A stretch of 64,000 nucleotides of DNA, from contig JAQBRI010000009.1 of the NCBI GenBank assembly GCA_028286585.1, positions 28,010 to 92,009 of the forward strand. Direction: 5' to 3'. The position numbers and the translations under genes are program-made. Positions 50,901 through 64,000 of this stretch are shown piece after piece. The notes below the pieces were generated by a model. The model ran no database searches and was not told the DNA's origin. It worked only from the letters and a program-made list of their open reading frames with translations. How positions within the stretch are numbered: the stretch's first letter is position 1; every line of letters begins with the position of its first letter. This DNA is from Candidatus Kaiserbacteria bacterium (GTDB lineage: Bacteria > Patescibacteriota > Minisyncoccia > Phycocordibacterales > UBA2100).

Positions 50901-53900
50901 CCGCCGCCGGTACCTCCAGTTCCTGCTACTCCGCCTGCATGCCCTCCTGTTCCCAATGTTCCGTCTCCGCCATTTCCACCTGCGCCTCCCGTTCCGCCAC
51001 TTCTTCCGCTTGCGGTAAGACTACCAATAACGATGTCATTAATAAGGACTCCTGAGTTATCGCCAACAAGTCCACCGATGTATTCGGCACCGCCAACTCC
51101 ACCGATACCTCCGGTCCCTCCCGTTGCACCGGTGCCTCCGGCAATATTTCCCGAAGCACCAGCGGCACCTCCCGCTCCCGCGCCACCCGCGGCTCCTCCC
51201 ACAACACTAATAGAAGTAATTGTGTATGTTACGTCTCGAATGATTCCAGTATTGAAACCCATGATGCCTCCGCCCGCAGCAAGTCCGCCGGTACCACCGG
51301 CACCTCCTGCGCCGCCCGCTCCACCAATTGCTCCGGCTGTACTGCCGCCGGCACCACCCACTCCACCTGTGACGCCAGTACCTCCGGCACCTCCCGTTGA
51401 AGAAATAGTTCCAGTAGTATTTGGAAGACTGATTGTTGTTCCTAGGACACTATCGTTACCAATCACTCCTCCTGCGTATGACGCACCACCGACTCCTCCT
51501 GCACCTGATGTAATTCCCGCAGCTCCTGCAACACCAGCGCCCGATGTTCCAGGAGTTCCGGCAAGTCCACCATTTCCCGCAGCTCCGCCAAGAGCAACAG
51601 CATTGCCCGCAGCATATGAATCAGGACTTACGACCGCTGCATTAAATCCAACAAGGCCGCCCGCAGCGGCAAGTCCTCCGGCTTCGCCACTCAATCCGGC
51701 GACACCTCCCGTTGTACCAGCCGATCCGCCGGCAAACGCACCCGAAGAATTTCCTCCGTTTCCGGTTGTCGCTCCCGCCGCTCCTACTCCACCGGTTGCA
51801 AGTGCGTTACCTGATGCGTGCGAACCATTTTGAATTATTCCGTTTGTCGTATTAAAACCGACGAGTCCGCCCGCGTACGCAAGACCTGCGGCGTTTGATG
51901 CTGCAGCACTAGCCGAAGTATTTCCTCCAGCGCCGCCTGTTGTACCAGCTCCACCATTTCCTCCGCTGCCGCCGGCACCTCCCGCCCCGCCCGTCGCTGA
52001 GGCATTGCCTGTTGCGTACGAACCATTAATTACTCCACTACTATTTCCCGCGAGTCCTCCTGCGTACGCTGCCTTACCCAAAGCAACAGCAGCGCCTGCG
52101 CCGCCCGCAGCACCAGTGCCTCCGACACCTCCGTTACCACCGCTTCCAGTTACACCCGCGGTTGAAGTTGCGTTAATAGTCGCGTGTGATCCCAAAATGA
52201 CACCGCTTGTTGAATTGTTTGCGACGAGTCCGCCGGCGTATGCAAACCCGCCAAGCGAAACACTTGTTCCGCCAACTCCACCAACTCCGCCCAAAGCACC
52301 ACTTCCACCTGTGCCCCCTGCTCCACCATTTGCGCCTATTCCACTTGCTCCACCTTGTGAGATTACAGAACCGGATTCTATATATGCATTTATTATTGTC
52401 GAAGTATTCAAGCCGACGAGACCACCAGCAAACGAGTCCCCACCCGCGCCAGCAGTTCCCCCTGTTGCACCCACCGCACCAACATGTGATGACCCTCCTG
52501 CTGATCCGTTTCCAGCAACACCCGCTGCTCCACCATTTTTTCCAGTTGATCCGGTTGCAACAATACTTCCGGACGCGTATGAATTTATTATTTCGTTTAA
52601 GTTGTTACCCACGAGTCCGCCCGCGTATGCAATAGCACCAGCGCCACCGTTTCCGCCAAGTCCACCTGCTGCTGCAGTACCCGAGTTAAACGTTGCAGTT
52701 GTAGCGCCTCCCGCACCACCTGCACCAGCATTTCCTGGCGTGCCTCCTACAGATGTGACATTGCCCGTTGAGTATGAAGTGGTTCGAATGATACCGCCGT
52801 TTTGTCCGACAAGACCTCCAGCCGTACTGATACCACCCGCGCCACCGTTGCCTCCGGTCGCTCCAACTCCACCAATCGCATTTGTTCCGCCGGTGCCTCC
52901 TGCACCACCCACTCCGCCAATGCCACCAGTTCCTCCGGTTACTGTCGTGCTACCGACCGCATAACTTGTAGTGACTGTTCCCAATGAAATGATACCAACG
53001 AGTCCTCCACCAAATGCGGCACCTCCTGCACCTCCCGTTCCACCCAATGCTCCAGCTCCACCTGTTGTACTTGCTGCTCCAGTTCCACCGGCACCTCCTG
53101 CACCTCCAATTCCGCCCGTGCCTCCAAGAGAATTAACGGTGCCCGTTGCGTAGGAAGTTAAAATTTCTCCAGTCGTCAAAAATCCAACCAAGCCTCCAAC
53201 ATACGCAATACCTCCGACAGCTCCTGTTCCTCCGGTAATGCCGGCCAAACTTGTACCACCCGCGCCACCTGCTGCTGCAGCACCGCCCGCGCCTGCTGTG
53301 CCGCTCACGTTCCCTGTTGAAAAATCATTGGTCAATGTTGATCCAGTGTTGTTTCCTACAAATCCGCCCGCATACACAATACCCCCCGCTGTTGCGGTAC
53401 CCGCAGCTCCGGCAAGTGCACCGGTGCCGCCCGCACCCCCTGCTCCTGCTGCACCTCCTGCGCCCGCAACACCTGTAACTGATCCAATAGTGTAATTACT
53501 ATCAGTAATTGTGAGTGCATTATTTCCAGCAAGTCCTCCAACATACAGAATTGCACCTGCTCCTCCAATACCACCCGCAAGACCGGCGAGTCCGGTGAGT
53601 CCTGTAACTCCGTTTGCTCCGGCACCTCCTGCGCCGCCGGTTCCATTTACAATATTTTGTGCACTCGATGTTTGAATGATTCCTGTATTACTTCCCACGA
53701 GTCCGCCGGCATATGTTGAAAGCACGTTTGCAGATCCGCCGGTGCCCGATGCACCGCCCGCACCTGACGTTCCACTTGAACCTTTGGTACCGCCCGCGCC
53801 TCCCGTGCCGCCAACTCCACCCGTGCCGCCAACAACAGTCACTAATCCAGTATTTGAAAAAGATGAAATAATTATTCCCGAGTTAAGACCAACAAGTCCT

Positions 53901-56818
53901 CCCGAATATGCTGCGCCTCCTGCGCCGCCTGCTGCTCCTCCTCCGCCTGTTCCTCCTATGTGTGCAGTTCCAAGAGATGCGTCACCTCCAGTTCCACCAA
54001 CTTGTCCAACTTTTCCCGTTGACCCAGTTGCAGTAACGGCGCCTGTCGCAAAGACCGCTGTTGTCGTACCAGTAATAATACCGCCAAGGTTATTTTGTCC
54101 AACGAGTCCGCCCGCATATGCTATAGCACCTGCTCCACCTACTCCGCCTGCACCACCAGTTGCTGCAGTGAGCGTAGTTGCAACAGCAGAAGCGCCGGCA
54201 GTTGCGCCAGCCGAACCATTGCCCGGTGTTCCTCCGGTTGATTGCACGACGCCTGTTGCGTTACTGCCCGTTTGAATTATTCCCAAGTTGTTTCCGACAA
54301 GTCCTCCGACATACGAAACACCGCCGGCTCCACCTGTGCCGCCGGCGCCTCCTGCTCCACCAATTGCAGCACCGCCTCCAGCACCACCTACGCCCGCAGT
54401 GCCGGCTGCTCCGCCCAATCCGCCGGTTCCGGTTACTGTTCCTGTTGCGGTAACAGAAGTCAGGATTCCTGCATTCACCCATCCGGCAAGGCCACCAACA
54501 TAATCAATACCTCCCGCTGCTGCAAGACCAACAGCTCCGCCTGCGCCTCCAATACCTGTTCCAGCATTAGCACCTCCGGCACCACTATTTCCAGAAGCAC
54601 CTCCTGCGCCTCCCGTTCCTATAACATTTACACCACTCGTTGCAGCTGTAATATTTCCTTGTTGAGAATAACCAACGACTCCACCAACGTAGACTGTTCC
54701 TCCCAATGCTGCCGCATTCGAAACACTTGCTCCGCCCGCGCCTGCCGTAGTCGCGCCGCTCGTTGTGTTTCCGCCTGCTGCCGCATTACCTGCTGCGCCT
54801 CCTGCACCTCCTACACCTGTTACATTTCCAGAAACACTTACGTTTGAAATCGTACCAATGTTGTATCCGACCAGTCCTCCCACATACATAGTTGCTGCAG
54901 CAGTTCCTGCCGTACCGGTTCCTCCAGCAGTTGGTGTCGTACCTGCAGTTCCAGCAGTTCCAGCGGTACCGGCAACACCCGCCGTACTTGTTGCACTAAT
55001 CAACTCGCCCGAGAGAATAACGTTTTTGATAGTGTTGTTAGAAAAACCAAAAAGACCAACATAGTTGAGCGTTGTCGTACTTATAAAAAGATTACTGATG
55101 GTAAAGTTTGCACCATCAAAGATTCCACTAAAGTTGGTTGTGTTATCGCCTATCGGCACAAAGCCTGCACCCAAGTTCCATCCCGATGTTACCGTCGCAT
55201 TAATATTATTATTAAGTTTGTATGAGTTGGTAAGTCCGGTTCGAATACCCTGCAAACCATATACGTCGTACGTAATAAAAGGATCGGTACTCACGCCAAT
55301 GCCGGTATATCGTCTAAAGGTTCCCGCTGTTACCGAAAAGTTTCCCGTCGCAGCAAATGTATTGGTGCCGGGATTGTTTGCAACAAAAGTTGCGGCTGAT
55401 GATTGCACATAATTTCCCGACAAACCTCCAGCGTTCGAAATCGTAAGACTCGCATTTTGTGTAATGGTACCAGTGTAGCCGGCGATCGTGAGCGATCCAA
55501 TAGTAAAAGCAGTATCAATGTTTGATGCGTTTGATCCTGTATCAAATATCACATCGGTGTTTACATCAGGAGTAGAAGCACCGGACGCGCCGTTAGATGT
55601 TGCCGACCAGCTTCCGGTCGAGCTCCACAAAGCGCCCGAAGCACCAACCCAGTATCGTGTCGTCGGGTCGACGACATAATCAATATCAACATTTCCAATA
55701 ATCTTAAGATCAAACTCGTCGGTCGGAGTTTGAAGATTGGTCAAAAGAATACGGTACTTTCCATCATGATCAATTGCATCAAACGTGCCGACAAGTACAC
55801 CATCAAGTGTGTACACTTCTACGCGCACCGATGCACCATCGTGTGACCGAGCATACAACGTAATGTCTTTTGTATTGTCGAGCAGCTGTGCAAACGTAAC
55901 GCGCACAAACTGTCCGTCAGAAATATTTGCATACTGCTGGTCTTGCGATTGCAAGAGTGGATACACATCGCCAATTGTATTTTTGTTTGCATCAAGTTGC
56001 AGTGCCTTCGAAATATAAATAATGGTAAATGTCTGAGTCGACAAGTGCGGCACGATCCACGCAACATGATCTATGTATCCGTTACCATCGTCATCAAACG
56101 ATTGAAACTCCATAACTTGATTTGCATTGTTCTGCCAATTTATTTTTATCTGATCTTCTTGACCAACCTTAAATATTTCTGGAATAGCAGTTCGCACCGG
56201 TACGTTCAAGATTGGTGTTATTTCATTTTCAAGATCCGCGACAGATACGACAACTGTCTTGCCATTGTCGTTTGTGTGTTCGGTGATCGTAGGCACCTGC
56301 ACCAGAATCGGTAACGCAAGATCCGAAGTCGATGCAGTATTTTGTGAATTTAAAAAAGTATCAGTCGACGTTGCTGTCAAAATTGCAGCACCACCTGAAC
56401 TAGTAAAAATATTTTGCACAGAACTCGATGCGCTGGTGTTATCAGAAATTATTTCTGTCGAAGATGCTTGAGTAAATGAAGTATCAGTTGAAGTTGCAAT
56501 ACTACTGCTCGCATTAATTACTTCACTTTGTAAACTATCGGTAGAAGTCGTTGCGGGGGGCTGTATTTTAGCATCACCCGAATCCTGTGAAACTTGGCTT
56601 CCCTGCCCAACCTGGTCGTCGGAGCTGGTAGCGACTGGCGCAGGAGTAGTCGCATCCTCTGTTGAAGTTACGATTACAGTATTTGTATCAGTGACAATTG
56701 GCGTTGCATCATCAGCATGCGTCGATACAACGTTTCCAAATAATATTCCAAGTACAAAAAAAACCCCTACAACAATTTGTAGCGGTAATCGGAATATTCT
56801 AAAAAATGGCTCAATCAC
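38993..56818 (-). CDS. Giant (5941 aa) cell-surface protein: signal-anchor, Ser/Thr-rich stalk, beta-rich N-domain, about 3200 aa of Gly-rich GLUG-like repeats, 21 fibronectin type III domains, unknown C-domain, poly-Gly linker, C-terminal type-I dockerin
   Basis: Single uninterrupted ORF with GTG start. Repeated YVGGLVG.N.G.I..SYATGNV..GG.GG.GGAGG units. FN3 units PNAPTSVTAV.GNGQATITFTPPVSNGG.AIT.YTVSSNTGGFTATGGSSPITITGLTNGTTYTFTVTATN repeated 19 times almost verbatim plus 2 divergent. C-terminus DINGDGKVNGIDFSILLAYWK...DLNHDGKVDSVDFSILLYHWKK is two calcium-binding dockerin repeats (DxNxDGxVNxxD). Preceded by 16 consecutive Gly. Confidence 0.85.
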   Translation of the reverse strand: MIEPFFRIFRLPLQIVVGVFFVLGILFGNVVSTHADDATPIVTDTNTVIVTSTEDATTPAPVATSSDDQVGQGSQVSQDSGDAKIQPPATTSTDSLQSEVINASSSIATSTDTSFTQASSTEIISDNTSASSSVQNIFTSSGGAAILTATSTDTFLNSQNTASTSDLALPILVQVPTITEHTNDNGKTVVVSVADLENEITPILNVPVRTAIPEIFKVGQEDQIKINWQNNANQVMEFQSFDDDGNGYIDHVAWIVPHLSTQTFTIIYISKALQLDANKNTIGDVYPLLQSQDQQYANISDGQFVRVTFAQLLDNTKDITLYARSHDGASVRVEVYTLDGVLVGTFDAIDHDGKYRILLTNLQTPTDEFDLKIIGNVDIDYVVDPTTRYWVGASGALWSSTGSWSATSNGASGASTPDVNTDVIFDTGSNASNIDTAFTIGSLTIAGYTGTITQNASLTISNAGGLSGNYVQSSAATFVANNPGTNTFAATGNFSVTAGTFRRYTGIGVSTDPFITYDVYGLQGIRTGLTNSYKLNNNINATVTSGWNLGAGFVPIGDNTTNFSGIFDGANFTISNLFISTTTLNYVGLFGFSNNTIKNVILSGELISATSTAGVAGTAGTAGTAGTTPTAGGTGTAGTAAATMYVGGLVGYNIGTISNVSVSGNVTGVGGAGGAAGNAAAGGNTTSGATTAGAGGASVSNAAALGGTVYVGGVVGYSQQGNITAATSGVNVIGTGGAGGASGNSGAGGANAGTGIGGAGGAVGLAAAGGIDYVGGLAGWVNAGILTSVTATGTVTGTGGLGGAAGTAGVGGAGGGAAIGGAGGAGGTGGAGGVSYVGGLVGNNLGIIQTGSNATGVVQSTGGTPGNGSAGATAGASAVATTLTAATGGAGGVGGAGAIAYAGGLVGQNNLGGIITGTTTAVFATGAVTATGSTGKVGQVGGTGGDASLGTAHIGGTGGGGAAGGAGGAAYSGGLVGLNSGIIISSFSNTGLVTVVGGTGGVGGTGGAGGTKGSSGTSGAGGASGTGGSANVLSTYAGGLVGSNTGIIQTSSAQNIVNGTGGAGGAGANGVTGLTGLAGLAGGIGGAGAILYVGGLAGNNALTITDSNYTIGSVTGVAGAGGAAGAGGAGGTGALAGAAGTATAGGIVYAGGFVGNNTGSTLTNDFSTGNVSGTAGAGGAAAAGGAGGTSLAGITGGTGAVGGIAYVGGLVGFLTTGEILTSYATGTVNSLGGTGGIGGAGGAGGTGAASTTGGAGALGGTGGAGGAAFGGGLVGIISLGTVTTSYAVGSTTVTGGTGGIGGVGGAGGTGGTNAIGGVGATGGNGGAGGISTAGGLVGQNGGIIRTTSYSTGNVTSVGGTPGNAGAGGAGGATTATFNSGTAAAGGLGGNGGAGAIAYAGGLVGNNLNEIINSYASGSIVATGSTGKNGGAAGVAGNGSAGGSSHVGAVGATGGTAGAGGDSFAGGLVGLNTSTIINAYIESGSVISQGGASGIGANGGAGGTGGSGALGGVGGVGGTSVSLGGFAYAGGLVANNSTSGVILGSHATINATSTAGVTGSGGNGGVGGTGAAGGAGAAVALGKAAYAGGLAGNSSGVINGSYATGNASATGGAGGAGGSGGNGGAGTTGGAGGNTSASAAASNAAGLAYAGGLVGFNTTNGIIQNGSHASGNALATGGVGAAGATTGNGGNSSGAFAGGSAGTTGGVAGLSGEAGGLAAAGGLVGFNAAVVSPDSYAAGNAVALGGAAGNGGLAGTPGTSGAGVAGAAGITSGAGGVGGASYAGGVIGNDSVLGTTISLPNTTGTISSTGGAGGTGVTGGVGGAGGSTAGAIGGAGGAGGAGGTGGLAAGGGIMGFNTGIIRDVTYTITSISVVGGAAGGAGAGGAAGASGNIAGGTGATGGTGGIGGVGGAEYIGGLVGDNSGVLINDIVIGSLTASGRSGGTGGAGGNGGDGTLGTGGHAGGVAGTGGTGGGGGVVYIGGLAGQGNGNIASSSSSGGTITVTLGGSGGVGGTGGTGGAGGSGSGRNGTGGTGGAGGVAGPIYSGGAIGLNSLADVIIESLSSSDDVTITEGSGGAGGAAVAGTNGAVGGTGGAGGGGGALNFGAYAGGLEGFNSGTGQSINNSRASGNITVTGGAGGAGAVGGAGGSGVTNSITGGAGAVGGIGGAGGFANGGGLLGFTNTNVFIGNSFTSGNVTVLAGVGGAAGNGGAGGAGGTASAGGAGATGGAAGLGGASYAGGLVAAAAASGGNIATSSSTGIIRGTSGAGGASGSGGAGGAGGSASLGGAGGNGAVGGGGGVNYTGGLVGDSPTTIQSSFHTTGAVSAFSGAGGAAGAGGTAGASGNISAGTAAAGGAGASGGVAGAVNVGGLVGRNNTVAGIINNSYATSDVNATGGSGGAGGVGGAGGDGTLATNHLGGTGGVGGAGGAGGGLVAGALQAGGLVGQNFVGTITNSYSQTGTVTVTGSAGGASAQGGAGGVGTGTALYGIAGAGGAGGAGGGVYVGGLVGYSIGVIQTSYSKTALNVTGGAGQNGTAGRSGAAGGGAAGSAGGAGGASSLIHVGGLVGNNASEIIASYASVDAGSGKGNISVAGGAMGNGANGGAGGSGLAAGSAGGAGGVGGVGGAGGGTFVGGLAGFNSAAGIITTSYSDTIAISGTEQTAGTGGIGGAGGTGVGAFAGGTGTAGGAGGAGSARSYGGLVGDNLGTIQNNSYSSISFSVTGGTGGTGGVGGAGGTSGSTIASGIAAAGGAGGAGGAGGVTYGGGLVGRINATTQTLQILNSYATGNATVTGGTGGTGGAGGVGGDGSTGTVTHAGSAGALGGSAGIGGDGNAGGLVGYTNVTSGIVNYSFDYATGNASSTGGNAGTAGTSGNGGASRTTVAGGAGGGAVLAAAGGSGFAGGLIGLNFVTTGGQSDIVNSYATGAVSATGGIGSTGNTGGVGANGAASSVGGAGGAGGIGGAGGDGNAGGLAGFTGATTGANNVLTSYATGNIVTSTSGTGGNGGSAGASGTSGSAAVGAATGGGGTSGAGGAAYAGGLVGRTSATASNNLIITSSYSTDNVIANGGTSGNGAAGVIGGAGGSGSIGGTGGLGGATGVGGAAYAGGLVAFNFGTIQGNSYATGNATSTSGTAGTPGAGAAGGASGSVSGSTAASGGAGGAGGAGGAAYVGGLIAHNTAIGVVLNSFALGSVVSIAKNGATGATGGAGGDGSLGTSAHVGGTGGTGGAGGIGGASYSGGLIGNNVNALNTIATSYAIGASVTGTSGVGGSGGTGGIGGLPGAAGVGGAGGAGGAAVSGGVLYTGGLIGFNDGTVLSGSYASTTVLGSAGAGGVGGTGGAGVAGGIATAANGATGGAGGSAGAAGVGGIAYAGGFNGYNNTGRTIKDSYANSSVTVTGGAGGVGGLGGNGAAGGAGIVAGTGGTGGIAGARTAGGVGGIAYGGGFVGQNNGGTISTSYGTGAVNVNGSAGGVGGAGGVGGNGGAGGPTGAGGIGGAMGATAAGGAGGAAYAGGLVGQNASGSTVLSSWSSGNVSLVGGAGASAGLSGTVSTGGAGGTLAGGAGGASVAGGNGGAGGASFAGGLMGADLATGTFNTSYSSGNVSITGGNGGNGAVGGKGGNGGVGGSGGSGNGGAGATGGTGGTGGVGGDVTGGGLVGQNTGVITNTYARGNVTITAGTPGTGAIGGAGGNAGAAGGGVAGVNGTGATGGAGGAGGNAYAGGLFGSNNAVITNTYATGVPTGTKTSGATGGTGGAAGTGGTGGAAGASGATGAAALQYVGGIVGNPIGGSYVSDYWDNVTSGKSNGVGNGADPAGMTGTTTTALKTQATYTNWDFVSPVWAITPGTTYAYLNYQTVPNAPTSVTAVPGNGQATITFAPPVNSGGSPITNYTVSSNTGGFTATGGSSPITITGLTNGTTYTFTVTATNASGTSISSGTSNAVTPATAPGAPTIGTATRGNGQATITFTPPVSNGGTAITTYTVSSNTGGFTATGGSSPITITGLVNGTTYTFTVTATNSAGTSSPSGTSNSVVPATVPGAPTGVSAVRGDTQATVSFTPPVNNGGSAITTYTVTSNVGGFTGTGSGSPIVVTGLTNGISYSFTVTATNAVGTSTASIASNSVIPATAPGAPTSVTATGGNGQATITFTPPVSNGGSAITTYTVSSNTGGFTATGGSSPITITGLVNGTTYTFTVTASSALGTSTPSSTSNSVVPATVPDAPTIGTATRGNTQATITFTPPVSNGGSAITGYTVTSNTGGFTATGGSSPITVTGLTNGTAYTFTVTATNSVGTSTASNATNSATPATIPDAPTSVIGTAGNGQVTISFTPGNTGGSPITLYTVSSNTGGFTTSGGSSPITLIGLTNGTAYTFTVTATNAVGTSASSSASSSVTPATVPDAPTSVSAVRGDTQATISFTPPVNNGGSAVTTYTVSSNVGGLTATGGSSPITITGLTNGTIYTFTVTATNSAGTSTASGTSNAITPAGVPSAPTSVTAVAGNGQATISFTPGNNNGSSISIYTVSSNTGGFTATGGSSPITVTGLTNGTAYTFTVTETNAIGTSTNSGTSNTITPATAPGAPTSVSAVAGNGQATVSFTPPVSNGGSAITTYTVSSNTGGFTATGGSSPITITGLTNGTTYTFTVTGTNSAGTSTASATSNTVVPATTPNAPTIGTVTRGNGEVTVTFTPPVSNGGAAITTYTVSSNTGGFTATGGSSPITVTGLTNGTAYTFTVTATNSVGTSASSSASASVTPATIPDAPTSVTAVRGDTQATISFTPPVSNGGAAITTYTVTSNVGGFTATGGSSPITVTGLSNGVVYAFTVTANNSAGTSTSSGISNSITPAGVPSAPTSVTAVGGNGQATITFTPGSNNGSAITNYTVTSNIGGFNVTGISSPLTVTGLTNGTAYTFTVTATNGVGTSTSSTLSNSVTPATVPNAPTGAVATAGNGQATITFTPPVSNGGAAITTYTVTSNSGGFTASGSGSPITVTGLTNGTAYTFTVTATNGVGTSTSSTLSNSVTPATAPGAPTSVSAVAGNGQATITFTPPVSNGGSAITNYTVSSNTGGFTATGGGSPITITGLTNGTTYTFTVTASNNVGTSTASSASNSVTPVTVPNAPTAVTAVSGNGQATVSFTPGSNNGSAITNYTVSSNTGGFTASGGSSPITITGLTNGTTYTFTVTATNAVGTSTPSGTSNTVVPATTPNAPTSVTAVSGNGQATITFTPPVNNGGAAVTSYTVTSSSGGLTATGGSSPITVTGLTNGTTYTFTVTATNAAGTSTASSASNSVIPGTVPNSPTGISAVGGNGQATITFTPPVSNGGAAITNYTVSSNTGGFTATGGSSPITITGLTNGTTYTFTVTATNSIGTSTSSGTSNSVTPATVPDAPTSISAVAGNGQATVSFTPPVSNGGAAITNYTVSSNTGGFTATGGSSPITITGLVNGTTYTFTVTATNNVGTSTSSGTSNSVVPAGGPSAPTSVAAVGGDGTATITFSPPSFTGGSAITSYTVTSNIGNFTATGGSSPITVTGLTNGTAYTFTVTATNAIGTSISSAATNSVTPATVPDAPTNLAAAIADSSVNLTWSAPGFNGGSPITSYTVTSNGGVFSTTTNGTSATIQGLTNGTTYTFTVTATNAVGTSTSSGTSNAATPASVPGAPINLAAIVQDSSINLSWSAPISNGGSPVTDYVVEYKLSSGGTWSIFSDGISTTPTTMVTSLSNNNSYDFRISAKNLVGRGTTTIPVSATPGAPAQVLIQSFSGLTVPSIATAVRITNEGSIAYEYQYTWCVTDSATNSCGGGDDIFSSTAAKLIQPGANFDTTLSSTVPVIGTYWFHVAVQYGSASSSASQSFTAIAAPVQNPGNGGGGGGGGGGGGGGGDNSPPVATPAATTEVIGDINGDGKVNGIDFSILLAYWKTKPPFKNNKVDLNHDGKVDSVDFSILLYHWKK
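39205..39252 (-). repeat. (GGN)16 simple repeat encoding a poly-Gly linker before the dockerin
   Basis: Plus strand cctccgcctcccccacctcctccacctccgccaccgccacctcc; protein GNGGGGGGGGGGGGGGGGDN. Confidence 0.8.
39700..45265 (-). repeat. Tandem array of about 20 near-identical repeats of about 270-285 bp, each encoding one FN3 domain
   Basis: DNA visibly repeats: the triplet sequence ...gtaactgtaaatgtgtacgttgttccatttgtgagaccagtaattgtaattggtgaagagccacc... recurs at about 275-bp spacing through the region. Confidence 0.85.
45400..55000 (-). repeat. Degenerate tandem repeats (about 180-210 bp units) encoding Gly-rich GLUG-like modules; extreme strand compositional skew (coding strand GGN-rich)
   Basis: Plus strand is dominated by CCNCC/GCNCC runs (antisense of GGN codons), generating many spurious Pro/Ala-rich plus-strand ORFs. 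Confidence 0.8.
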
Positions 56819-60571: not shown

Positions 60572-60598
60572 GTACTTAGGGACGGTCACCACCGTCCC
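60569..60598 (+). terminator. Rho-independent terminator after GNAT gene
   Basis: GGGACGGT-cacc-ACCGTCCC followed by TTTTTTTATTT. Confidence 0.75.
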
Positions 60599-60628
60599 TT
60601 TTTTATTTCTTAATATTATATTTGGCAA

Positions 60629-62635
60629 TTACTCTAAAACTTCTTGAACGATTCCTTGTACAGAATCACCTTCTTCAGGAATTATAGGTTGATGACTTTT
60701 GTTGGTACTTTTTGGTAACAAAATTCTGCGTCCATCTTTTTTGTCATACATTTTAATAGTCACGTTATCACCAAGCAATGCAACTACCCTATCACCAGTT
60801 TCTCCTTTTTCCGCAAATCTACACAGAACCAGATCTCCATCATTTATGCCTGCCAAGTCCATAGAATCCCCGTTCGCACGCAGTATAAAGTAAGTGGCAC
60901 CTGCCCTAAGTTTCGACTTTGGAACCATTATTTCATCTTCAATATTTTCTTCTCCGAGCAAGGGACTTCCGCACGGTGCCGAACCCACGATCGGCACTTG
61001 AACCATTGCAACCGTAATTGGAGATTTTATAGGTTGATACTCGTTATCTGATAAAACCGCCTGCTTATCGGAAAACATTGACGAAAAATATTTTCTTAAT
61101 TCCTCATCCACAACATAAACAAATGTGCCTTTTATTCCTCGTGTTAACAATGTCTTATAGATATTTGTAATATATCCCTTGAGTTCTTCAGGGTCCGATA
61201 TTGATCTCTTCCCGTTAATATCTTTGTATTTCTTTTCATCAATAATAATGCGTTTTGCTATTGGATCATATGAAAATTCAGGTCCTATGATTACGCCGGT
61301 GTAATTTAGATCATATCCCTGTACAGTGTGAATACATCCAACTTCATTTAGAGAGTTTTTTGAATTAACCCAATCTATATTCGTGCTATTCCAGGTAAGT
61401 TGTAAGCCATCAATCTCGATATCATGACCCGGTTTGTTTCCTTTTGTTTTCCACGACCAGGCATATCCTGCAACGAGACGCGCTAATTTATGCTCTGCGT
61501 CCTTGGTTTTGATATCTTCAACCATATCGCGAATTGAGTCGTACATTTTAAATTCATAGTTTGAAAATCGAGGCTGTTCTACATGACGGCCTTCAAGTAA
61601 ATTGTCTACGAATCGCAAATAATCTTCACCTGCATTGATACGCATCTGGCTTACCAATTCAAACTCTTTTGCATCAAGTTTAGAAAAATCTGTAGCTTGT
61701 ACGTCTCCCGGGACGACATTTTGTTTTTTGTCGTAGAAGAATATTTGTTTTTTAGAGCACTTCATTACCCAATCAAGCTGTGTACCTTCCTTTGCCAGGC
61801 CTAACGCACGATTCGTTTGATCATAGGAGCCAAAGTTTGCTAGATTTACTCTTCGTCGAAGCCTATGTGCTTCATCAACAATAAGTAAATCATATTCTTT
61901 TTTCACAACATCACTCGGTCCAATCACCATTTCGACCCCAAGACCTGGAACTCTTTTTACTACTCTTTGTAGTGTTGCTCGTAAACCTGTCATTGGAACA
62001 ACAAGGGCAATCTTAAGATGACTTGTTTCCGAGGTTTCCTTAAGATGTTTGAGCAAATACATTGCGAGTATCGATTTACCAGTACCCGGATTACCATGGA
62101 CGATATGGGTCGAAACTTTATTTGCTTTTATACTTTCCTCGAGTGCTGTTGCAACTTCAAGCTGATCTTCTGTAAGTGCTTTATATGGAGAGTACTTAAA
62201 AAACTCACTGTTTTTTATCGAATGTAAATCTTCTTTAACGAGCCCGAGTTCTTGTAGTTTTGGCCATATAACATCCAATTTGGCTTGATATTTTTCCTTT
62301 TCGAAATAGTTATGATTTATTAAACCACCATTCCCATTTTGCAGTTTAAATACACCATCAGCAGAAACATATTGGATAAGTAAGGATTCGAAATCAAAGG
62401 CAGAGGAAAGATTAAATTCTTCATCTGTAAGTACGTGGATTCTTTTTAAGCGACGTCTATTCTCATTAAGGTCGTAATGTTGTTTACTTCTTGAGTAAAG
62501 AGTGGTCGTCTGTCCAATATACATCTCACTACCATTTTCTTGGATGTATACGACTGGCCAATTTAGGCCATAGTGAAAATCTCTGAGTTTATCAAAGTCT
62601 TTGCGATCAAAGGGGAAAGTTTTGATCTCTACCAT
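60629..62635 (-). CDS. Three-domain fusion: N-terminal GIY-YIG-like nuclease motif, central DUF2075/SF1-helicase-like P-loop ATPase, C-terminal UmuD/LexA-type S24 self-cleaving peptidase domain
   Basis: PVVYIQENGSEMYIGQTTTLYSRSKQH (GIY..YIG..R..H). HIVHGNPGTGKSILAMYLL (Walker A), LLIVDEAHRL (Walker B/DEAH-like), CIHTVQGYDLNYTGVIIGPEF (SF1 motif VI-like, typical of DUF2075). C-terminal SAPCGSPLLGEENIEDEIMVPKSKLRAGATYFILRANGDSMDLAGINDGDLVLCRF...VTIKMYDKKDGRRILLP aligns with UmuD (QCG/[50 protein letters not shown]...FTVKKLQ), including the Cys-Gly cleavage site, Ser (GDSM) and Lys (TIKMY) dyad. Confidence 0.65.
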   Translation of the reverse strand: MVEIKTFPFDRKDFDKLRDFHYGLNWPVVYIQENGSEMYIGQTTTLYSRSKQHYDLNENRRRLKRIHVLTDEEFNLSSAFDFESLLIQYVSADGVFKLQNGNGGLINHNYFEKEKYQAKLDVIWPKLQELGLVKEDLHSIKNSEFFKYSPYKALTEDQLEVATALEESIKANKVSTHIVHGNPGTGKSILAMYLLKHLKETSETSHLKIALVVPMTGLRATLQRVVKRVPGLGVEMVIGPSDVVKKEYDLLIVDEAHRLRRRVNLANFGSYDQTNRALGLAKEGTQLDWVMKCSKKQIFFYDKKQNVVPGDVQATDFSKLDAKEFELVSQMRINAGEDYLRFVDNLLEGRHVEQPRFSNYEFKMYDSIRDMVEDIKTKDAEHKLARLVAGYAWSWKTKGNKPGHDIEIDGLQLTWNSTNIDWVNSKNSLNEVGCIHTVQGYDLNYTGVIIGPEFSYDPIAKRIIIDEKKYKDINGKRSISDPEELKGYITNIYKTLLTRGIKGTFVYVVDEELRKYFSSMFSDKQAVLSDNEYQPIKSPITVAMVQVPIVGSAPCGSPLLGEENIEDEIMVPKSKLRAGATYFILRANGDSMDLAGINDGDLVLCRFAEKGETGDRVVALLGDNVTIKMYDKKDGRRILLPKSTNKSHQPIIPEEGDSVQGIVQEVLE

Positions 62636-62637
62636 AT

Positions 62638-63003
62638 CTACAACTGTGTATACTTTGTGTGCCGCCCTTTGGCCTTTGCTACCGGGTATTTCTCACCATT
62701 TTTCTTCATCTTTTTTTCAAGTGCATCAGAAATATCAATTTTAAGATCATTACACATTAGCAGTACCCAATAGAATACATCGGCTAACTCTTCGGCAACA
62801 TCTTCTTTATTTGTCTTTATGTGTGCCTCCATTTCTTCTTTATTTTTCCATTGAAAATGTTCCATGACTTCGGCAGCCTCTAAAACCAAGGAAATGGCTG
62901 TGTCTTTTGGGTTATGAAATTGTTTCCAATCACGAGCGTCACGAAATGAGACCACGAGCTTTTTGAGCTCCGCAAGGCTCTTTTGGGTCTTTTTTGTCGT
63001 CAT
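62638..63003 (-). CDS. MazG-like nucleoside triphosphate pyrophosphohydrolase
   Basis: LEAAEVMEHFQW and EELADVFYWVLLMCNDLKIDISDALEKKMKKNGEKYP are the EExxE...ExxD all-alpha NTP-PPase (MazG) motifs; 121 aa. Confidence 0.7.
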   Translation of the reverse strand: MTTKKTQKSLAELKKLVVSFRDARDWKQFHNPKDTAISLVLEAAEVMEHFQWKNKEEMEAHIKTNKEDVAEELADVFYWVLLMCNDLKIDISDALEKKMKKNGEKYPVAKAKGRHTKYTQL

Positions 63004-63076: not shown

Positions 63077-64000
63077 CTAGTATTTCGTACCGATATATAT
63101 ACCGTAGGTACCATAGCATTGATATCCGCCCTTGCCTTTGTGGGGGCGCATGGACGAGTCATGATTATTTCGAGTGAAGCGTTTACCACAAACACCGCAC
63201 TTAAAGATATACTTTAACCCTCCAGAAAAACGTTGCCCTTGTGGACGAAGTGTACGGACAGTCTGCATACGGGGCGCTCTCGGGGCTTTCTCCGGTTTGT
63301 TTGGATCAAACAAGTATCGATCTTCCGGTATTTCACCCGACTTCGACAGTTCAATCGGATACTGCGGTATAAATTTCACATCTGTATTTTCCAGCGTTTC
63401 CACCTTGTCGGAAATGAAGCTACGCATCCCAGGTGGATTGGTGCCTCCACTTTTGTTGTACGCAAAAAAATACTCACGTTCGCTCCCGTCCCTCTTCTGC
63501 ATGTACTTGAGCGAGTACGGCTCCACAGTGCGGTCCGCACCGTTATAGCGGAAGCGCAGAAGCGTTTGGGTACGTGCTGCGTGCATAATAGTAGCGCGAT
63601 GATCAGCATTGAAATAGGCGAATTGGGCGAAGCCGCTGTCAGAATATCCTGCGAACAGCAGTTCTAGATCTGTGGTAAATGCGATGATTGCATCCTCGAC
63701 ACCAATTAAGAATTCCTTGGCACACACCACAGACTTTGCCCATTCCTGCCGATAGTAGTCAAAACCGGTTTTCAACAGGATGCTTTTGAGTACAAAAGGA
63801 TTTCGAGAGAAGATTGTTTTTTGTATTAGCGTGCGCATCACTTCTCCCCTGTCGAGGCTGCCACCCAACTTCTGAATGGAGTAAGCATAGTCAAAAAGAT
63901 CTGGCGCGTGCTGGCGCTGCATCATACATTTCAGCTTTGTGGCGATAATCTCTTCGAGCTTCATACAGCGAATAGTGCATGCCACCTCTTCCGCATCCGA
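63077..64000 (-). CDS. AbiEii/DUF1814-like nucleotidyltransferase-family protein (3' portion; ORF continues upstream beyond window end) with C-terminal Cys/His zinc-ribbon-like tail
   Basis: No stop between the listed Met (63985) and window end (SDAEE precedes it in frame). KLEEIIATKLKCMMQRQHAPDLFDYAYS resembles the conserved ExxxAEKLxAxxxR..xRDLYDL motif of AbiEii-type NTases. C-terminal CGVCGKRFTRNNHDSSMRPH. Confidence 0.35.
   Translation of the reverse strand, partial: SDAEEVACTIRCMKLEEIIATKLKCMMQRQHAPDLFDYAYSIQKLGGSLDRGEVMRTLIQKTIFSRNPFVLKSILLKTGFDYYRQEWAKSVVCAKEFLIGVEDAIIAFTTDLELLFAGYSDSGFAQFAYFNADHRATIMHAARTQTLLRFRYNGADRTVEPYSLKYMQKRDGSEREYFFAYNKSGGTNPPGMRSFISDKVETLENTDVKFIPQYPIELSKSGEIPEDRYLFDPNKPEKAPRAPRMQTVRTLRPQGQRFSGGLKYIFKCGVCGKRFTRNNHDSSMRPHKGKGGYQCYGTYGIYIGTKY

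What the first reader, a model, noticed from the sequence alone, without database searches (positions are those of the whole stretch)
60629..62635. Nuclease-ATPase carrying a UmuD-like (Cys-Gly site) S24 autopeptidase domain at its C-terminus
In LexA, UmuD and phage repressors, the S24 domain is C-terminal to a DNA-binding or regulatory N-domain and self-cleaves when bound to RecA-ssDNA filaments. Here the same domain is appended to a roughly 540-aa GIY-YIG plus SF1-type ATPase (DUF2075) effector. It keeps the Cys-Gly scissile bond (SAPCG), the Ser nucleophile (GDSM) and the Lys general base. The alignment to UmuD is colinear over about 110 residues. A plausible model is that DNA damage or phage-induced ssDNA triggers RecA-stimulated autocleavage that releases or activates the nuclease-helicase. 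That would be an SOS-sensing effector rather than an SOS repressor, a wiring I do not know to be described.
Basis: partly seen in the sequence, partly recalled or inferred. Interest (0 to 1): 0.82.

Follow-up and report, generated by a model that had tools for sequence, protein, structure and literature searches.

The report
Self-cleaving LexA tail on nuclease-helicase
A bacterial DNA-cutting, DNA-unwinding enzyme carries at its end the self-cleaving module that normally lets the LexA repressor sense DNA damage; it always travels with a small nucleotide-hydrolysing partner gene, which suggests an undescribed way of switching such an enzyme directly in response to damaged or viral DNA.

Summary
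Window 60629-62635 (minus strand) encodes a 668-aa protein from a Candidatus Kaiserbacteria MAG. It has a GIY-YIG-type nuclease, a DUF2075/Schlafen-type SF1B helicase, a variable linker, and a C-terminal S24 autopeptidase. Gly556, Ser591 and Lys628 are invariant in 120 homologs, and Cys555 is C in 117 and A in 3.

- The tail is LexA-derived, not UmuD-like. Its nearest relatives are LexA repressors, most of which also carry Cys-Gly.
- The gene is the second of a two-gene operon. A DCTPP1/MazG-like dNTP pyrophosphatase ends 2 nt upstream. The pair recurs in Patescibacteria, Bacteroidota, a Gastranaerophilales MAG, Bacillus megaplasmids and viral contigs.

The S24 tail is an optional module. It sits on GIY-YIG and PD-(D/E)xK versions, is absent from others, and similar tails occur on MutH-like nucleases. 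The tail-less pair was a Sorek-lab defence candidate (SG192) that showed no phenotype.

The LexA pocket that receives RecA Phe203 is conserved in the tail. RecA*-triggered self-cleavage that frees a Nhi-like nuclease-helicase is the best model, but it is untested. The direction of the switch and the physiological role (defence or repair) remain open. No published description was found.

The parts
62638..63003 (-). Partner gene: 121-aa MazG-like / DCTPP1-type all-alpha dNTP pyrophosphohydrolase, first gene of the operon. Its stop codon lies 2 nt before the start of the nuclease-helicase gene.
   Evidence: Pfam MazG-like PF12643 E=8e-19. PDB matches: 4qgp pyrophosphatase 7e-21 and DCTPP1/RS21-C6 1e-17. 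Homologs sit immediately upstream in L001-L014, L020 and L022-24, in L037/L038, L039-41, Bacillus plasmids and viral contigs. E42, E45, E48, E72 and D75 are invariant in 38/38 sequences.
60629..62635 (-). Whole 668-aa ORF (stop codon 60629-60631): nuclease, SF1B helicase, linker and S24 autopeptidase.
   Evidence: P0001 is identical and comes from a Candidatus Kaiserbacteria MAG.
62216..62635 (-). N-terminal GIY-YIG-type nuclease domain (aa 1-140). Catalytic set: Y30, Y39-I-G41, R49, H53, E83, N100.
   Evidence: Pfam GIY-YIG is weak here (E=1e-3) but above threshold in homolog L027. The family profile's top PDB hits are EndoII, UvrC-N and I-TevI. The catalytic residues are invariant. The AF2 model shows beta-beta-alpha-beta-alpha topology at pLDDT 74-94.
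61076..62215 (-). DUF2075 / Schlafen-group-3-type SF1B helicase core (aa 141-520). Walker A GNPGTGKS is at 62072-62095; Walker B VDEAHR is at 61862-61879.
   Evidence: PF09848 E=4e-67. Foldseek top hits are SLFN11, RecD2, RecD, Dna2 and Upf1. G181, G184, G186, K187, D254, E255 and H257 are invariant. Coordinates checked.
60998..61075 (-). Variable, probably disordered linker (aa 521-546) between the helicase and the S24 module.
   Evidence: Mean column conservation is 0.375, against 0.74-0.82 for the domains. AF2 pLDDT is below 50 for residues 524-542.
60632..60997 (-). LexA-type S24 autopeptidase module (aa 547-668), including the cleavage-site region VPIVGSAPCGSPLL.
   Evidence: PF00717 E=4e-20 and TIGR00498 E=1.5e-21. 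PDB LexA E=1e-12. It is the most conserved part of the protein, 0.82.
60968..60973 (-). Predicted scissile bond Cys555-Gly556.
   Evidence: Aligns with LexA A84-G85 and UmuD C24-G25. C in 117/120, A in 3/120, G in 120/120.
60863..60865 (-). Predicted nucleophile Ser591 (GDSM).
   Evidence: Aligns with LexA S119 and is present in 120/120. Also conserved in the Bacteroidota-type and MutH-type tails.
60752..60754 (-). Predicted general base Lys628 (TIKMY).
   Evidence: Aligns with LexA K156 and is present in 120/120.
60578..60599 (.). GC-rich perfect hairpin in the 57-nt gap between the ORF's stop and the convergent GNAT gene. It is a likely shared terminator marking the operon's end.
   Evidence: 9-bp stem, 6 GC pairs, T-run.

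Best explanation
The locus is a two-gene operon. The first gene encodes a DCTPP1/MazG-like dNTP pyrophosphatase. The second encodes a Nhi-like enzyme (GIY-YIG nuclease plus SF1B DUF2075 helicase) that has acquired the C-terminal self-cleaving domain of a LexA repressor.

Proposed mechanism:
1. DNA damage, or phage replication and recombination, produces RecA-ssDNA filaments (RecA*).
2. The S24 tail docks on RecA* by accepting RecA Phe203 in its conserved hydrophobic pocket. This stabilises the cleavable conformation.
3. Ser591 and Lys628 cut the Cys555-Gly556 bond.
4. This detaches the tail (aa 556-668), which probably dimerises or inhibits, from a 555-aa nuclease-helicase. That fragment is equivalent to the naturally tail-less homologs and then acts on ssDNA-containing intermediates, as Nhi does.
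5. The pyrophosphatase partner hydrolyses dCTP-like or modified dNTPs in parallel.

What is shown: the architecture, the intact catalytic and cleavage-site residues, the pocket conservation, the operon conservation and the modularity.

What is inferred: self-cleavage, RecA* as the trigger, activation rather than inactivation, and the physiological role. On the role, I favour anti-phage/anti-MGE defence over DNA repair at roughly 60:40.
For: **Catalytic features.**
- The S24 fold and all catalytic features align with solved LexA.
- They are invariant in 120 CPR homologs.
- They are also kept in two further, much more divergent tail lineages: the Bacteroidota type at about 22-26% identity, and the P0137/MutH type at 38-43%. 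That argues for selection on catalysis, not merely on a dimerisation fold.

**RecA link.**
- Pocket residues for RecA F203 (paper) are conserved: V550, A553, F583 (120/120), L585, V618, V625 (119/120). The contact residue E95 maps to E566 (116/120).
- RecA with an intact L2 loop is encoded about 4 kb from the operon in L008.
- A umuD-like S24 plus a Y-family polymerase gene lie on the same CPR contig in L037. This suggests an S24/RecA* axis may operate in these organisms.

**LexA origin.** The nearest relatives of the tail are true LexA repressors with the same Cys-Gly site and the same 2-residue 'ST' insertion.

**The N-fragment is a self-sufficient unit.** Natural tail-less homologs end at the end of the helicase: L013 at 524 aa, Bacillus at 560 aa, L030 at 528 aa, and about 100 Bacteroidota clusters at about 570-585 aa.

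**Precedent in the enzyme family.** Full-length Nhi is autoinhibited, and an in-cell truncation product carries the nuclease activity (Bari et al., bioRxiv 10.1101/776245).

**Defence-type neighbourhoods.**
- AbiEii/WYL in the window.
- Fic.
- EVE plus DUF559.
- A reverse transcriptase.
- Bub/ThiF plus ImmA-HTH.
- HipA, HEPN-MNT and a VapE-type element.
- An integrase-bearing viral contig.
- The tail-less pair was picked up as a defence-island candidate by Millman et al..
Against: - No experiment exists. Cleavage, RecA dependence and its consequence are all inferred.
- Cory et al. note that pocket residues vary among bona fide LexAs. The pocket residues are also buried hydrophobics that the fold itself may constrain. 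Conservation is therefore suggestive, not proof.
- The Bacteroidota-type tails have a partly different pocket (Tyr at the V79 and V153 positions) and two insertions.
- In E. coli the small LexA N-domain also contacts RecA* inside the filament groove. A 62-kDa nuclease-helicase on a 26-residue linker may not fit.
- AF2 failed to model the tail confidently, so there is no structural view of any autoinhibitory contact.
- The only experimental test of the tail-less pair (SG192) gave no phage protection.
- Repair-type neighbours also recur: Pyr_excise, ExoX-like, AddA-like UvrD-PDDEXK, and RecR.
- Sequence conservation is high, 59-74% across CPR classes, which is unusual for a fast-evolving defence gene.
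- No conserved operator or LexA box was seen upstream.
Confidence: 0.45

Rival explanations
1. Safety switch (inactivation). The full-length, S24-dimerised enzyme is the active form. RecA*-stimulated self-cleavage during the host's own SOS response dismantles or destabilises it, as cleavage does to LexA. This would stop the nuclease-helicase from attacking the cell's own RecA-coated repair and restart intermediates.
For: In the founding member LexA, cleavage inactivates by separating the functional domain from the dimerising CTD (paper). Nhi works as a dimer whose dimerisation determinant lies outside the nuclease domain. A nuclease-helicase that targets ssDNA-containing intermediates is intrinsically dangerous during host repair. 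The residue evidence is the same as for the main model.
Against: Natural tail-less homologs are common and are presumably functional without any S24 dimeriser. Full-length Nhi is the inhibited form, not the active one.
Confidence: 0.2
2. Self-cleavage is real, but RecA* is not the trigger. The tail cleaves in response to another cue. Candidates are the helicase engaging ssDNA, a phage protein, pH or redox acting on the Cys-Gly site, or the MazG partner and its nucleotide products.
For: The two operon ends (MazG 61-66% identity, tail 76-82%) are far more conserved than the middle (helicase 34-36%, nuclease domain swapped). This hints at a MazG-tail functional coupling. The Bacteroidota-type tails have an altered F203 pocket. 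The bulky N-terminal enzyme may be sterically incompatible with the RecA* groove.
Against: In the CPR-type tail the F203 pocket and E566 are conserved as in E. coli LexA. The nearest relatives are LexA repressors. To my knowledge, the characterised self-cleaving S24 family members (LexA, UmuD, lambda cI) use RecA* as co-protease.
Confidence: 0.15
3. The tail is a non-cleaving adaptor. It only dimerises the enzyme, or tethers it to RecA filaments, for example to deliver an SF1B helicase that strips RecA or processes recombination intermediates. The catalytic residues would be retained for structural reasons.
For: LexA and UmuD CTDs are dimerisation modules. SF1 helicases that modulate RecA filaments are known, for example B. 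subtilis RecD2 (abstract listed). The caspase-S24 protein P0254 shows that degenerate, non-catalytic S24 copies do exist.
Against: Ser, Lys and the small-residue-Gly scissile pair are invariant across three tail lineages that have diverged to about 22-43% identity. A pure scaffold would not maintain all of these. P0254 shows how quickly they decay when not needed.
Confidence: 0.1
4. This rival is on a different axis from the others: physiological role. The operon would be a housekeeping DNA-damage-response module rather than an anti-phage system. MazG sanitises the damaged dNTP pool, and the UvrC-like GIY-YIG nuclease plus helicase processes lesions or stalled forks. The S24 tail would restrict its action to SOS conditions.
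For: Conservation is high across CPR classes. Repair genes recur nearby: Pyr_excise, ExoX-like, AddA-like, RecR and umuDC-like. L041 sits in a purely housekeeping context. SG192 gave no phage protection. MazG-family enzymes are classic house-cleaning enzymes (DCTPP1 match).
Against: Only MazG is syntenic and the flanks differ in every locus. The operon occurs on megaplasmids, integrase-bearing elements and viral contigs. The nuclease domain is swapped and the tail is gained or lost, which is typical of defence and MGE genes. The architecture matches validated defence enzymes Nhi and Nhi-like.
Confidence: 0.35

Closest known systems
LexA repressor (MEROPS S24; E. coli LexA, PDB 1JHE/7B5G/8TRG)
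   Same: The C-terminal domain is homologous: 37-40% identity over about 107 aa, with E=1e-12 to PDB LexA and 1.5e-21 to TIGR00498. It has the same Ser-Lys dyad, the same position of the scissile (Ala/Cys)-Gly bond in a LexA-like cleavage-site strand (VPIVGSAPCGSPLL against LPLVGRVAAGEPLL), and the same hydrophobic pocket residues that accept RecA F203.
   Different: There is no winged-helix DNA-binding domain. The N-terminal 520 residues are a nuclease plus helicase, and the TIGR00498 score of 76.9 is below the 110.95 cutoff. Cleavage would release or alter an enzyme rather than derepress a regulon.
UmuD -> UmuD' (Pol V accessory subunit)
   Same: It is the one classic case in which RecA*-stimulated S24 self-cleavage activates a non-repressor function post-translationally, so it is the conceptual precedent. 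It has a Cys-Gly scissile bond, and the alignment is colinear over 117 aa.
   Different: Sequence similarity is weaker than to LexA (3e-7 against 1e-12; NF007621 48.6 bits against a cutoff of 110). UmuD is a 139-aa stand-alone subunit that loses a 24-aa N-terminal arm, and it is not covalently fused to the enzyme it controls. No umuC is adjacent here. Cys-Gly is shared with most of the nearest LexA relatives, so it is not diagnostic.
Nhi (S. epidermidis SERP2475) and Nhi-like (B. cereus SG141) nuclease-helicase defence proteins
   Same: The architecture is an N-terminal nuclease plus a DUF2075 SF1B helicase. PADLOC Nhi and AbiO profiles hit the helicase core (1.5e-13 and 5e-12). Full-length Nhi is autoinhibited and a truncated form is nuclease-active. 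Both are validated anti-phage enzymes.
   Different: Nhi has a PD-(D/E)xK nuclease, not GIY-YIG. The profile match is only partial (aa 146-379). Nhi has no S24 tail and is a single-gene system without a MazG partner.
Millman et al. 2022 candidate 'Pyrophosphatase' systems SG192 (B. firmus) and SG193 (B. thuringiensis)
   Same: Same two-gene design: a MazG-like pyrophosphatase (45-51% identical to the window's) next to a nuclease-DUF2075 protein. The PD-(D/E)xK variant with an S24 tail (L015) is 50% identical to the SG192 DUF2075 protein over 400 aa.
   Different: Neither has an S24 tail. The N-terminal nuclease is PD-(D/E)xK. SG192 showed no protection and SG193 failed cloning, so the system was never validated or named.
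Human SLFN11 (Schlafen group 3)
   Same: Its C-terminal helicase domain is the best structural match to the helicase core (Foldseek E=2e-10) and defines Pfam PF09848. From established knowledge, SLFN11 is recruited to RPA-coated ssDNA at stressed forks and kills damaged cells. That logic parallels a RecA-ssDNA-sensing bacterial homolog.
   Different: Identity is only 12%. SLFN11 has a different N-terminal (tRNA endoribonuclease) domain, no S24 module and no MazG partner. The analogy is functional, not evidence of shared regulation.
CapH/CapP-type and ImmA/IrrE-type DNA-damage-responsive control of defence systems (own knowledge)
   Same: They couple a DNA-damage or ssDNA signal to immune output through a proteolytic event.
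   Different: There, a separate metallopeptidase cleaves a transcriptional repressor, so control is transcriptional. Here a serine autopeptidase is fused to the effector itself, so control would be direct and post-translational.

Membership tests
Peptidase S24 (LexA/UmuD/cI-type autopeptidase domain) | Significant sequence match to the S24 catalytic domain | tested here: met
   PF00717 72.1 bits against a cutoff of 23.3, E=4e-20. PDB LexA 1e-12.
Peptidase S24 (LexA/UmuD/cI-type autopeptidase domain) | Ser nucleophile and Lys general base at the homologous positions | tested here: met
   S591 aligns with LexA S119 and K628 with K156. Both are invariant in 120/120 and are kept in the divergent tail lineages.
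Peptidase S24 (LexA/UmuD/cI-type autopeptidase domain) | Internal (Ala/Cys)-Gly scissile bond in a cleavage-site strand N-terminal to the catalytic core | tested here: met
   C555-G556 aligns with LexA A84-G85. C in 117, A in 3, G in 120 of 120.
Peptidase S24 (LexA/UmuD/cI-type autopeptidase domain) | Actual self-cleavage (alkaline pH) and stimulation by RecA-ssDNA-ATP filaments | not testable with these tools
   Only indirect evidence is available. The RecA-F203 pocket residues are conserved, and RecA with an intact L2 loop occurs in the lineage.
LexA repressor (NCBIfam TIGR00498 equivalog) | N-terminal winged-helix LexA DNA-binding domain (PF01726) and a full-length score above the cutoff | tested here: not met
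   There is no PF01726 hit. TIGR00498 scores 76.9 bits against a cutoff of 110.95 and matches only profile positions 79-198. The protein is not a LexA.
UmuD (NF007621, Pol V autoproteolytic subunit) | Small stand-alone S24 protein scoring above the family cutoff and encoded with umuC | tested here: not met
   48.6 bits against a cutoff of 110. The protein is 668 aa and has no Y-family polymerase neighbour in the window.
DUF2075 / Schlafen group 3 SF1B helicase (PF09848) | Profile match over the whole domain with intact Walker A and Walker B (DExH) motifs | tested here: met
   227 bits, profile positions 4-354 of 354. GNPGTGKS and VDEAHR have invariant G, K, D, E and H. The fold matches SLFN11, RecD2 and Dna2.
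GIY-YIG nuclease superfamily | GIY...YIG strands followed by Arg, Glu and Asn catalytic residues in a beta-beta-alpha-beta-alpha core | tested here: inconclusive
   This protein is below the Pfam cutoff (19.6 against 22.6 bits). However, homolog L027 is above it (32.8 bits). The family profile's best PDB hits are all GIY-YIG enzymes at E=0.015-0.3. Y30, Y39, G41, R49, H53, E83 and N100 are invariant. The AF2 topology fits. Membership is very likely but not formally at threshold.
Nhi nuclease-helicase defence family (PADLOC PDLC02372) | Full-length match to the Nhi profile, including its PD-(D/E)xK nuclease | tested here: not met
   Only aa 146-379 match profile positions 176-374 of 470 (E=1.5e-13), and the nuclease domain is of a different fold class. 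It works like Nhi by architecture but is not a member of that family.
Nhi nuclease-helicase defence family (PADLOC PDLC02372) | Anti-phage activity | not testable with these tools
   The only related experiment is Millman's tail-less SG192, which gave no protection.
'Pyrophosphatase + DUF2075' candidate system (Millman SG192/SG193) | Adjacent, co-oriented MazG-like pyrophosphatase and nuclease-DUF2075 genes homologous to the candidate's | tested here: met
   The gap is 2 nt in the window. The pairing is conserved in all but L025/L026 of the loci where the upstream sequence is available. MazG is 45-51% identical to the SG192/193 proteins, and the L015 helicase is 50% identical to SG192's.
MazG-like / DCTPP1 all-alpha NTP pyrophosphohydrolase (partner gene) | Profile match and ExxE...ExxD metal-binding motif | tested here: met
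   PF12643 68 bits against a cutoff of 27. DCTPP1 1e-17. E42, E45, E48, E72 and D75 are invariant in 38/38. Substrate specificity was not testable.

The most novel reading that the evidence does not exclude
LexA-type S24 tails are a portable, directly acting RecA*-ssDNA sensor. Bacteria have repeatedly bolted them onto nuclease effectors: GIY-YIG- and PD-(D/E)xK-DUF2075 nuclease-helicases in at least three tail lineages, and MutH/Sau3AI-like endonucleases paired with a C5 methylase. In this reading, DNA damage or phage replication switches the effector post-translationally, without any transcriptional step. This would be a new sensing principle for prokaryotic immunity. It would also be a bacterial counterpart of SLFN11's recruitment to RPA-ssDNA, with the MazG/DCTPP1-like partner acting as a second, nucleotide-pool arm of the same response.
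Probability: 0.35. Interest if true: 0.85.

Novelty: new variant of a known kind. Interest (0 to 1): 0.7.

Why it matters
- **A new output for the RecA*/S24 switch.** If the tail works as in LexA, the oldest known bacterial damage sensor would have a third kind of output, beside repressor inactivation (LexA, cI) and polymerase-subunit maturation (UmuD). That output is direct proteolytic gating of a nuclease-helicase.
- **An infection cue for Nhi-type effectors.** It would give a concrete, testable answer to how Nhi/Schlafen-type effectors can be tied to an infection or damage signal.
- **A handle on an orphan pair.** The 'pyrophosphatase + DUF2075' pair was flagged as a defence candidate but never shown to function. 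It is in fact conserved from Patescibacteria to Bacteroidota and Bacillus plasmids.
- **Tractability.** The design is abundant in human-gut Bacteroidota (one cluster has 1,040 member sequences). That lineage should be more accessible experimentally than the uncultured CPR host of this window.
- **Parallel with Schlafen.** It links bacterial DUF2075 enzymes conceptually to human SLFN11, which also responds to ssDNA at damaged forks.

Tried and rejected
1. **'UmuD-like' classification: rejected.** LexA profiles and structures score better. The nearest relatives are LexA repressors, and most of them also have Cys-Gly.
2. **AF2 of the full protein.** It gave a good nuclease and helicase but a poor tail (pLDDT 40-70).
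3. **AF2 of the tail alone.** A 12-sequence alignment gave pLDDT 53. No fold search was run on it, and no inference was drawn about tail-enzyme contacts.
4. **Search for a conserved operator or LexA box upstream of MazG in 21 loci.** Nothing was shared by eye. The Patescibacteria LexA motif paper (Sanchez-Osuna et al. 2017) is not held, so LexA control of the operon is untested.
5. **Strict sigma-70 scan.** It found no promoter upstream of MazG.
6. **RecA, or a second S24 gene, in the window.** None was found.
7. **Exact-sequence look-up of the window protein's contig.** It is not on record.
8. **PLSDB plasmids and INPHARED phages.** There is no helicase-S24 junction. All S24 hits there are LexA, UmuD, cI or XRE repressors. 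Tail-less GIY-YIG-DUF2075 plus MazG pairs do occur on Bacillus megaplasmids.
9. **P0235 (2,608 aa, 13 'S24' stretches).** It is a cadherin/Kelch repeat false positive.
10. **A too-strict Ser-motif regex.** It suggested that Bacteroidota tails lack the nucleophile. Alignment showed that all of them have G-x-S-M.
11. **Ten literature searches.** No paper describes an S24-effector fusion or a MazG-DUF2075 system beyond Millman's supplementary table.

Full report
**1. The observation**

The window has an ATG-initiated ORF at exactly 60629..62635 on the minus strand, encoding 668 aa. An identical protein is on record from a Candidatus Kaiserbacteria MAG (P0001).

Pfam gives two strong domain calls:
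- PF09848 (Schlafen group 3 helicase, formerly DUF2075) over aa 177-510, E=4e-67.
- PF00717 (Peptidase_S24) over aa 548-656, E=4e-20.

NCBIfam's LexA model matches aa 546-666 through its C-terminal half only (E=1.5e-21, below the full-length cutoff). The UmuD model matches more weakly (E=7e-13).

- SAPCG gives C555-G556.
- GDSM gives S591.
- TIKMY gives K628.
- Walker A is GNPGTGKS and Walker B is VDEAHR.

In the HMMER alignment to solved E. coli LexA, C555-G556 falls on the scissile A84-G85, S591 on the nucleophile S119, and K628 on the base K156.

The GIY-YIG call is the weakest part, at 19.6 bits against a 22.6 cutoff. Four further lines support it:
- Some homologs carry PF01541 hits, and a distant homolog (L027) scores above threshold.
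- A profile of 19 N-terminal domains has T4 endonuclease II, UvrC-N and I-TevI as its best PDB matches.
- Y30, Y39-x-G41, R49, H53, E83 and N100 are invariant.
- The AF2 model has the expected beta-beta-alpha-beta-alpha topology at high confidence.

The helicase core folds like SLFN11, RecD2, RecD, Dna2 and Upf1, that is, SF1B.

**2. It is a family, not an accident**

The best 120 clusters at 90% identity are all 659-698 aa, 59-74% identical, and all carry PF09848 plus PF00717. Source names include Kaiser-, Pace-, Nomura- and Kerfeldbacteria.

A scan of GTDB species genomes added Adlerbacteria, Saccharibacteria, Moraniibacteriota, Paceibacterota and one Gastranaerophilales MAG.

Across the 120 proteins, G556, S591 and K628 are invariant, and C555 is Cys in 117 and Ala in 3. 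The S24 module is the best conserved part (0.82 mean column conservation, against 0.74-0.76 for helicase and nuclease). The 26-residue linker is variable (0.375) and AF2 predicts it to be disordered.

**3.

Directly upstream, with its stop codon 2 nt before the ATG, lies a 121-aa MazG-like gene at 62638..63003. Its closest solved relatives are an archaeal pyrophosphatase (4qgp, 7e-21) and dCTP pyrophosphatase 1/RS21-C6 (1e-17).

A homolog (44-73% identical) sits 3-8 nt upstream of the nuclease-helicase gene in L001-L014, L020 and L022-L024. Only L025/L026 lack it.

The same pairing holds in every wider lineage examined:
- Further CPR contigs.
- Two Bacteroidota-type lineages, with a 4-nt overlap.
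- IMG/VR viral contigs, in either gene order.
- Bacillus cereus-group megaplasmids, where NCBI annotates 'nucleotide pyrophosphohydrolase' next to 'DUF2075 domain-containing protein'.

The ExxE...ExxD metal site (E42, E45, E48, E72, D75) is invariant in 38 of 38 sequences, including mouse DCTPP1. Nothing else in the neighbourhood is syntenic.

**4. Modularity**

*Swapped nuclease.* In L015, L016, L019 (Saccharibacteria and Paceibacterota) and L017 (Gastranaerophilales), the GIY-YIG domain is replaced by an unrelated ~250-aa PD-(D/E)xK-like domain (…RIDFII…IIIELKQW). There the helicase is only 34-36% identical to the window's, yet the S24 tail is 76-82% identical and MazG 63-66%. I cannot explain why the operon's two ends are so much more conserved than its middle.

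*Lost tail.* L013 keeps MazG and the GIY-YIG-helicase (57% identical) but ends at residue 524 with no tail.

*Distant tailed homologs.* A 38%-identical homolog on viral contigs with a Bacteroidota-type integrase (L027, 747 aa) has GIY-YIG + DUF2075 + S24 (E=1e-10), with AACG, GNSM and SLKKY. Its relatives are abundant: one cluster has 1,040 member sequences.

*Tailed and tail-less forms interleave.* In that search, 17 tailed clusters (725-748 aa) are interleaved with about 100 tail-less ones (~570-585 aa), one of them from cultured Alistipes provencensis. All tailed ones keep (A/C)-G, G-x-S-M and (S/T)-(I/V)-K.

*A third tail type.* It is found on a DUF2075 fragment (P0137), on MutH-like nucleases (P0167, P0274) and on P0166, and it also keeps Cys-Gly, Ser and Lys. 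The MutH-S24 protein lies divergently next to a C5 DNA methylase and an AIPR gene. A caspase-S24 protein (P0254) has degenerate sites, which shows what relaxed selection looks like.

The S24 tail is therefore an optional, repeatedly gained or lost module on nuclease effectors. Wherever it is present on these nuclease-type proteins, it is catalytically intact.

**5. Origin of the tail**

A full phmmer scan of 1.84 billion representatives with aa 521-668 found 9 hits below 1e-30, all from the fusion family. The next hits are ~200-210-aa proteins at 45-50% identity. Those are LexA repressors with LexA_DNA_bind + S24.

Of the 84 nearest LexA-sized relatives, 56 have Cys-Gly and 27 have Ala-Gly. 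They share the tail's two-residue 'ST' insertion relative to E. coli LexA.

The tail is therefore a captured LexA C-terminal domain, and Cys-Gly is not a UmuD signature.

**6. Does it sense RecA*?**

Cory et al. (bioRxiv 10.1101/2023.10.30.564768) show that RecA F203 inserts into a LexA pocket formed by V79, V82, F111, L113, V146 and V153. This pocket exists only in the cleavable conformation. E95, D151, K135 and E189 make lesser contacts.

These residues map to the target as follows:

| LexA residue | Target residue | Conservation in 120 homologs |
|---|---|---|
| V79 | V550 | 111 |
| V82 | A553 | 117 |
| F111 | F583 | 120 |
| L113 | L585 | 88 L, 30 V |
| V146 | V618 | 112 |
| V153 | V625 | 119 |
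| E95 | E566 | 116 |

A Saccharibacteria RecA about 4 kb from one operon is 58% identical to E. coli RecA. Its L2 loop, QIRMQIGVMFGNPETTTGG, includes F203. A CPR contig with the operon also has a umuD-like S24 plus Y-family polymerase pair.

This is consistent with RecA* responsiveness but does not prove it, for three reasons:
- Pocket residues vary among true LexAs.
- The Bacteroidota tails differ at two pocket positions.
- A 62-kDa N-terminal enzyme may clash with the filament groove, where LexA's small N-domain normally sits.

**7. What cleavage would do**

The predicted N-fragment (1-555) is essentially the natural tail-less enzyme: L013 is 524 aa, Bacillus 560 aa, L030 528 aa, and Bacteroidota ~570-585 aa.

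In the only biochemically studied relative, Nhi, the full-length dimer is nearly devoid of nuclease activity, 'suggesting a mechanism of autoinhibition'. An N-terminal truncation product formed in cells is active. [quoted passage not shown]

I therefore favour activation by release of an inhibitory or dimerising tail. The opposite remains a serious rival: a safety switch that disables the enzyme during the host's own SOS response.

**8. Role**

Evidence for defence:
- Millman et al. (bioRxiv 10.1101/2022.05.11.491447) included 'Pyrophosphatase' candidates SG192 (B. firmus) and SG193 (B. thuringiensis) among their defence-island predictions. These are MazG-like + PD-(D/E)xK-DUF2075 pairs. SG192 showed no protection ('x') and SG193 failed cloning, whereas the single-gene Nhi-like SG141 was verified.
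- L015's enzyme is 50% identical to SG192's over 400 aa, and the window's MazG is 45-51% identical to theirs.
- Defence- or MGE-type neighbours recur: AbiEii/WYL, Fic, EVE + DUF559, a reverse transcriptase, Bub/ThiF, ImmA-HTH, HipA, HEPN-MNT, VapE, integrase, zeta toxin and HNH.

Evidence for repair:
- Repair genes also recur nearby: Pyr_excise, ExoX-like, AddA-like, RecR and umuDC-like.
- Conservation across CPR classes is unusually high.

I put defence against repair at about 60:40.

**9. Novelty**

Each part is known: S24 autocleavage, Nhi-type nuclease-helicases, and MazG/DCTPP1 enzymes. UmuD is a precedent for S24 cleavage activating a non-repressor function.

The covalent fusion of a LexA-type tail to an effector enzyme was not described in any paper I could find. 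The same holds for its obligatory MazG partner, its spread over several phyla and its recurrence on other nucleases.

The only traces found are:
- JGI's automatic double annotation, 'DUF2075 family protein/SOS-response transcriptional repressor LexA'.
- A remark that DUF2075 is fused to GIY-YIG or PD-(D/E)xK domains (PMC6765204).
- Millman's unvalidated tail-less candidate.

I class it as a new variant of a known kind.

**10. Limits**

Everything about activity is inferred. AF2 did not model the tail. No operator was found. The host genome beyond this window could not be inspected for lexA or recA.

Noticed in passing
window 38993..56818 (-): A single 5,941-aa ORF. Its GC content is 0.55-0.58 against about 0.43 background, with GC skew near -0.3. 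It contains long Gly/Ala/Thr-rich repeats, about 30 FN3-like repeats (…ATITFTPPVSNGGSAITxYTVxSNxGGFTATG…TYTFTVTATN…) and a dockerin-like C-terminus. It is probably a giant surface protein of this CPR bacterium.
   Followed up: no
window 63077..63985 (-): The 302-aa ORF immediately upstream of the MazG gene matches only the C-terminal half of AbiEii toxin profiles. This is followed by a WYL-like segment and a Cys-rich tail. It looks like a truncated or rearranged AbiEii-type defence gene.
   Followed up: partly
L034 5001-6893 (also L035, L036); proteins P0167/P0271/P0274: A 630-641-aa protein with an N-terminal MutH/Sau3AI-like nuclease domain and a C-terminal S24 tail with intact Cys-Gly, Ser and Lys. 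It is encoded divergently from a C5 DNA methylase and next to an AIPR abortive-infection gene. It appears to be a restriction-like nuclease with a LexA-type tail.
   Followed up: partly
L015 6951-9611, L017 707-3405 compared with window 60629-63003: The two ends of the operon (MazG 63-66% identity, S24 tail 76-82%) are far more conserved than the middle (helicase 34-36%, nuclease domain replaced). Possible explanations are cassette exchange, or co-constraint of MazG and the tail. This is unexplained.
   Followed up: partly
L032 1432-3492 and 3899-5581 (Bacillus sp. PGP15 plasmid p1): Between the MazG gene and the GIY-YIG-DUF2075 gene lies a 686-aa 'GIY-YIG nuclease family protein'. Its first ~60 residues are almost identical to those of the DUF2075 protein, but it continues into a different P-loop NTPase (GMGKSS). 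The nuclease module is duplicated onto another NTPase.
   Followed up: no
protein P0254 (733 aa, JGI, named 'SOS regulatory protein LexA'): The architecture is caspase (Peptidase_C14) + S24 + LexA_DNA_bind + S24. The first S24 copy has Lys replaced by Arg, and the second has Ser replaced by Ala and Lys by Arg. These are degenerate S24 copies on a caspase-like protein.
   Followed up: partly
L037 16253-17845 and 5695-7530: A CPR contig carrying the operon also encodes a 96-aa S24 protein followed by a Y-family polymerase (umuDC-like). An RVT_1 reverse transcriptase lies directly upstream of MazG.
   Followed up: no
L038 7113-7454 and 11078-15048: A Pyr_excise (T4 endoV-like) gene lies directly upstream of MazG. 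Downstream are ImmA/IrrE + HTH, a Multi_ubiq-ThiF-BubE ubiquitin-like system and a NYN nuclease.
   Followed up: no
L030 3125-5034 (IMG/VR contig): A tail-less GIY-YIG-DUF2075 gene with MazG downstream (reversed gene order) sits among SNF2-, HTH_36- and DnaB-like genes. That is a phage replication-module-like context rather than a defence island.
   Followed up: partly
window 60578..60599: A perfect 9-bp GC-rich hairpin with flanking T/A runs lies in the 57-nt gap between the convergent GNAT gene and the nuclease-helicase gene. It is a likely bidirectional terminator.
   Followed up: no
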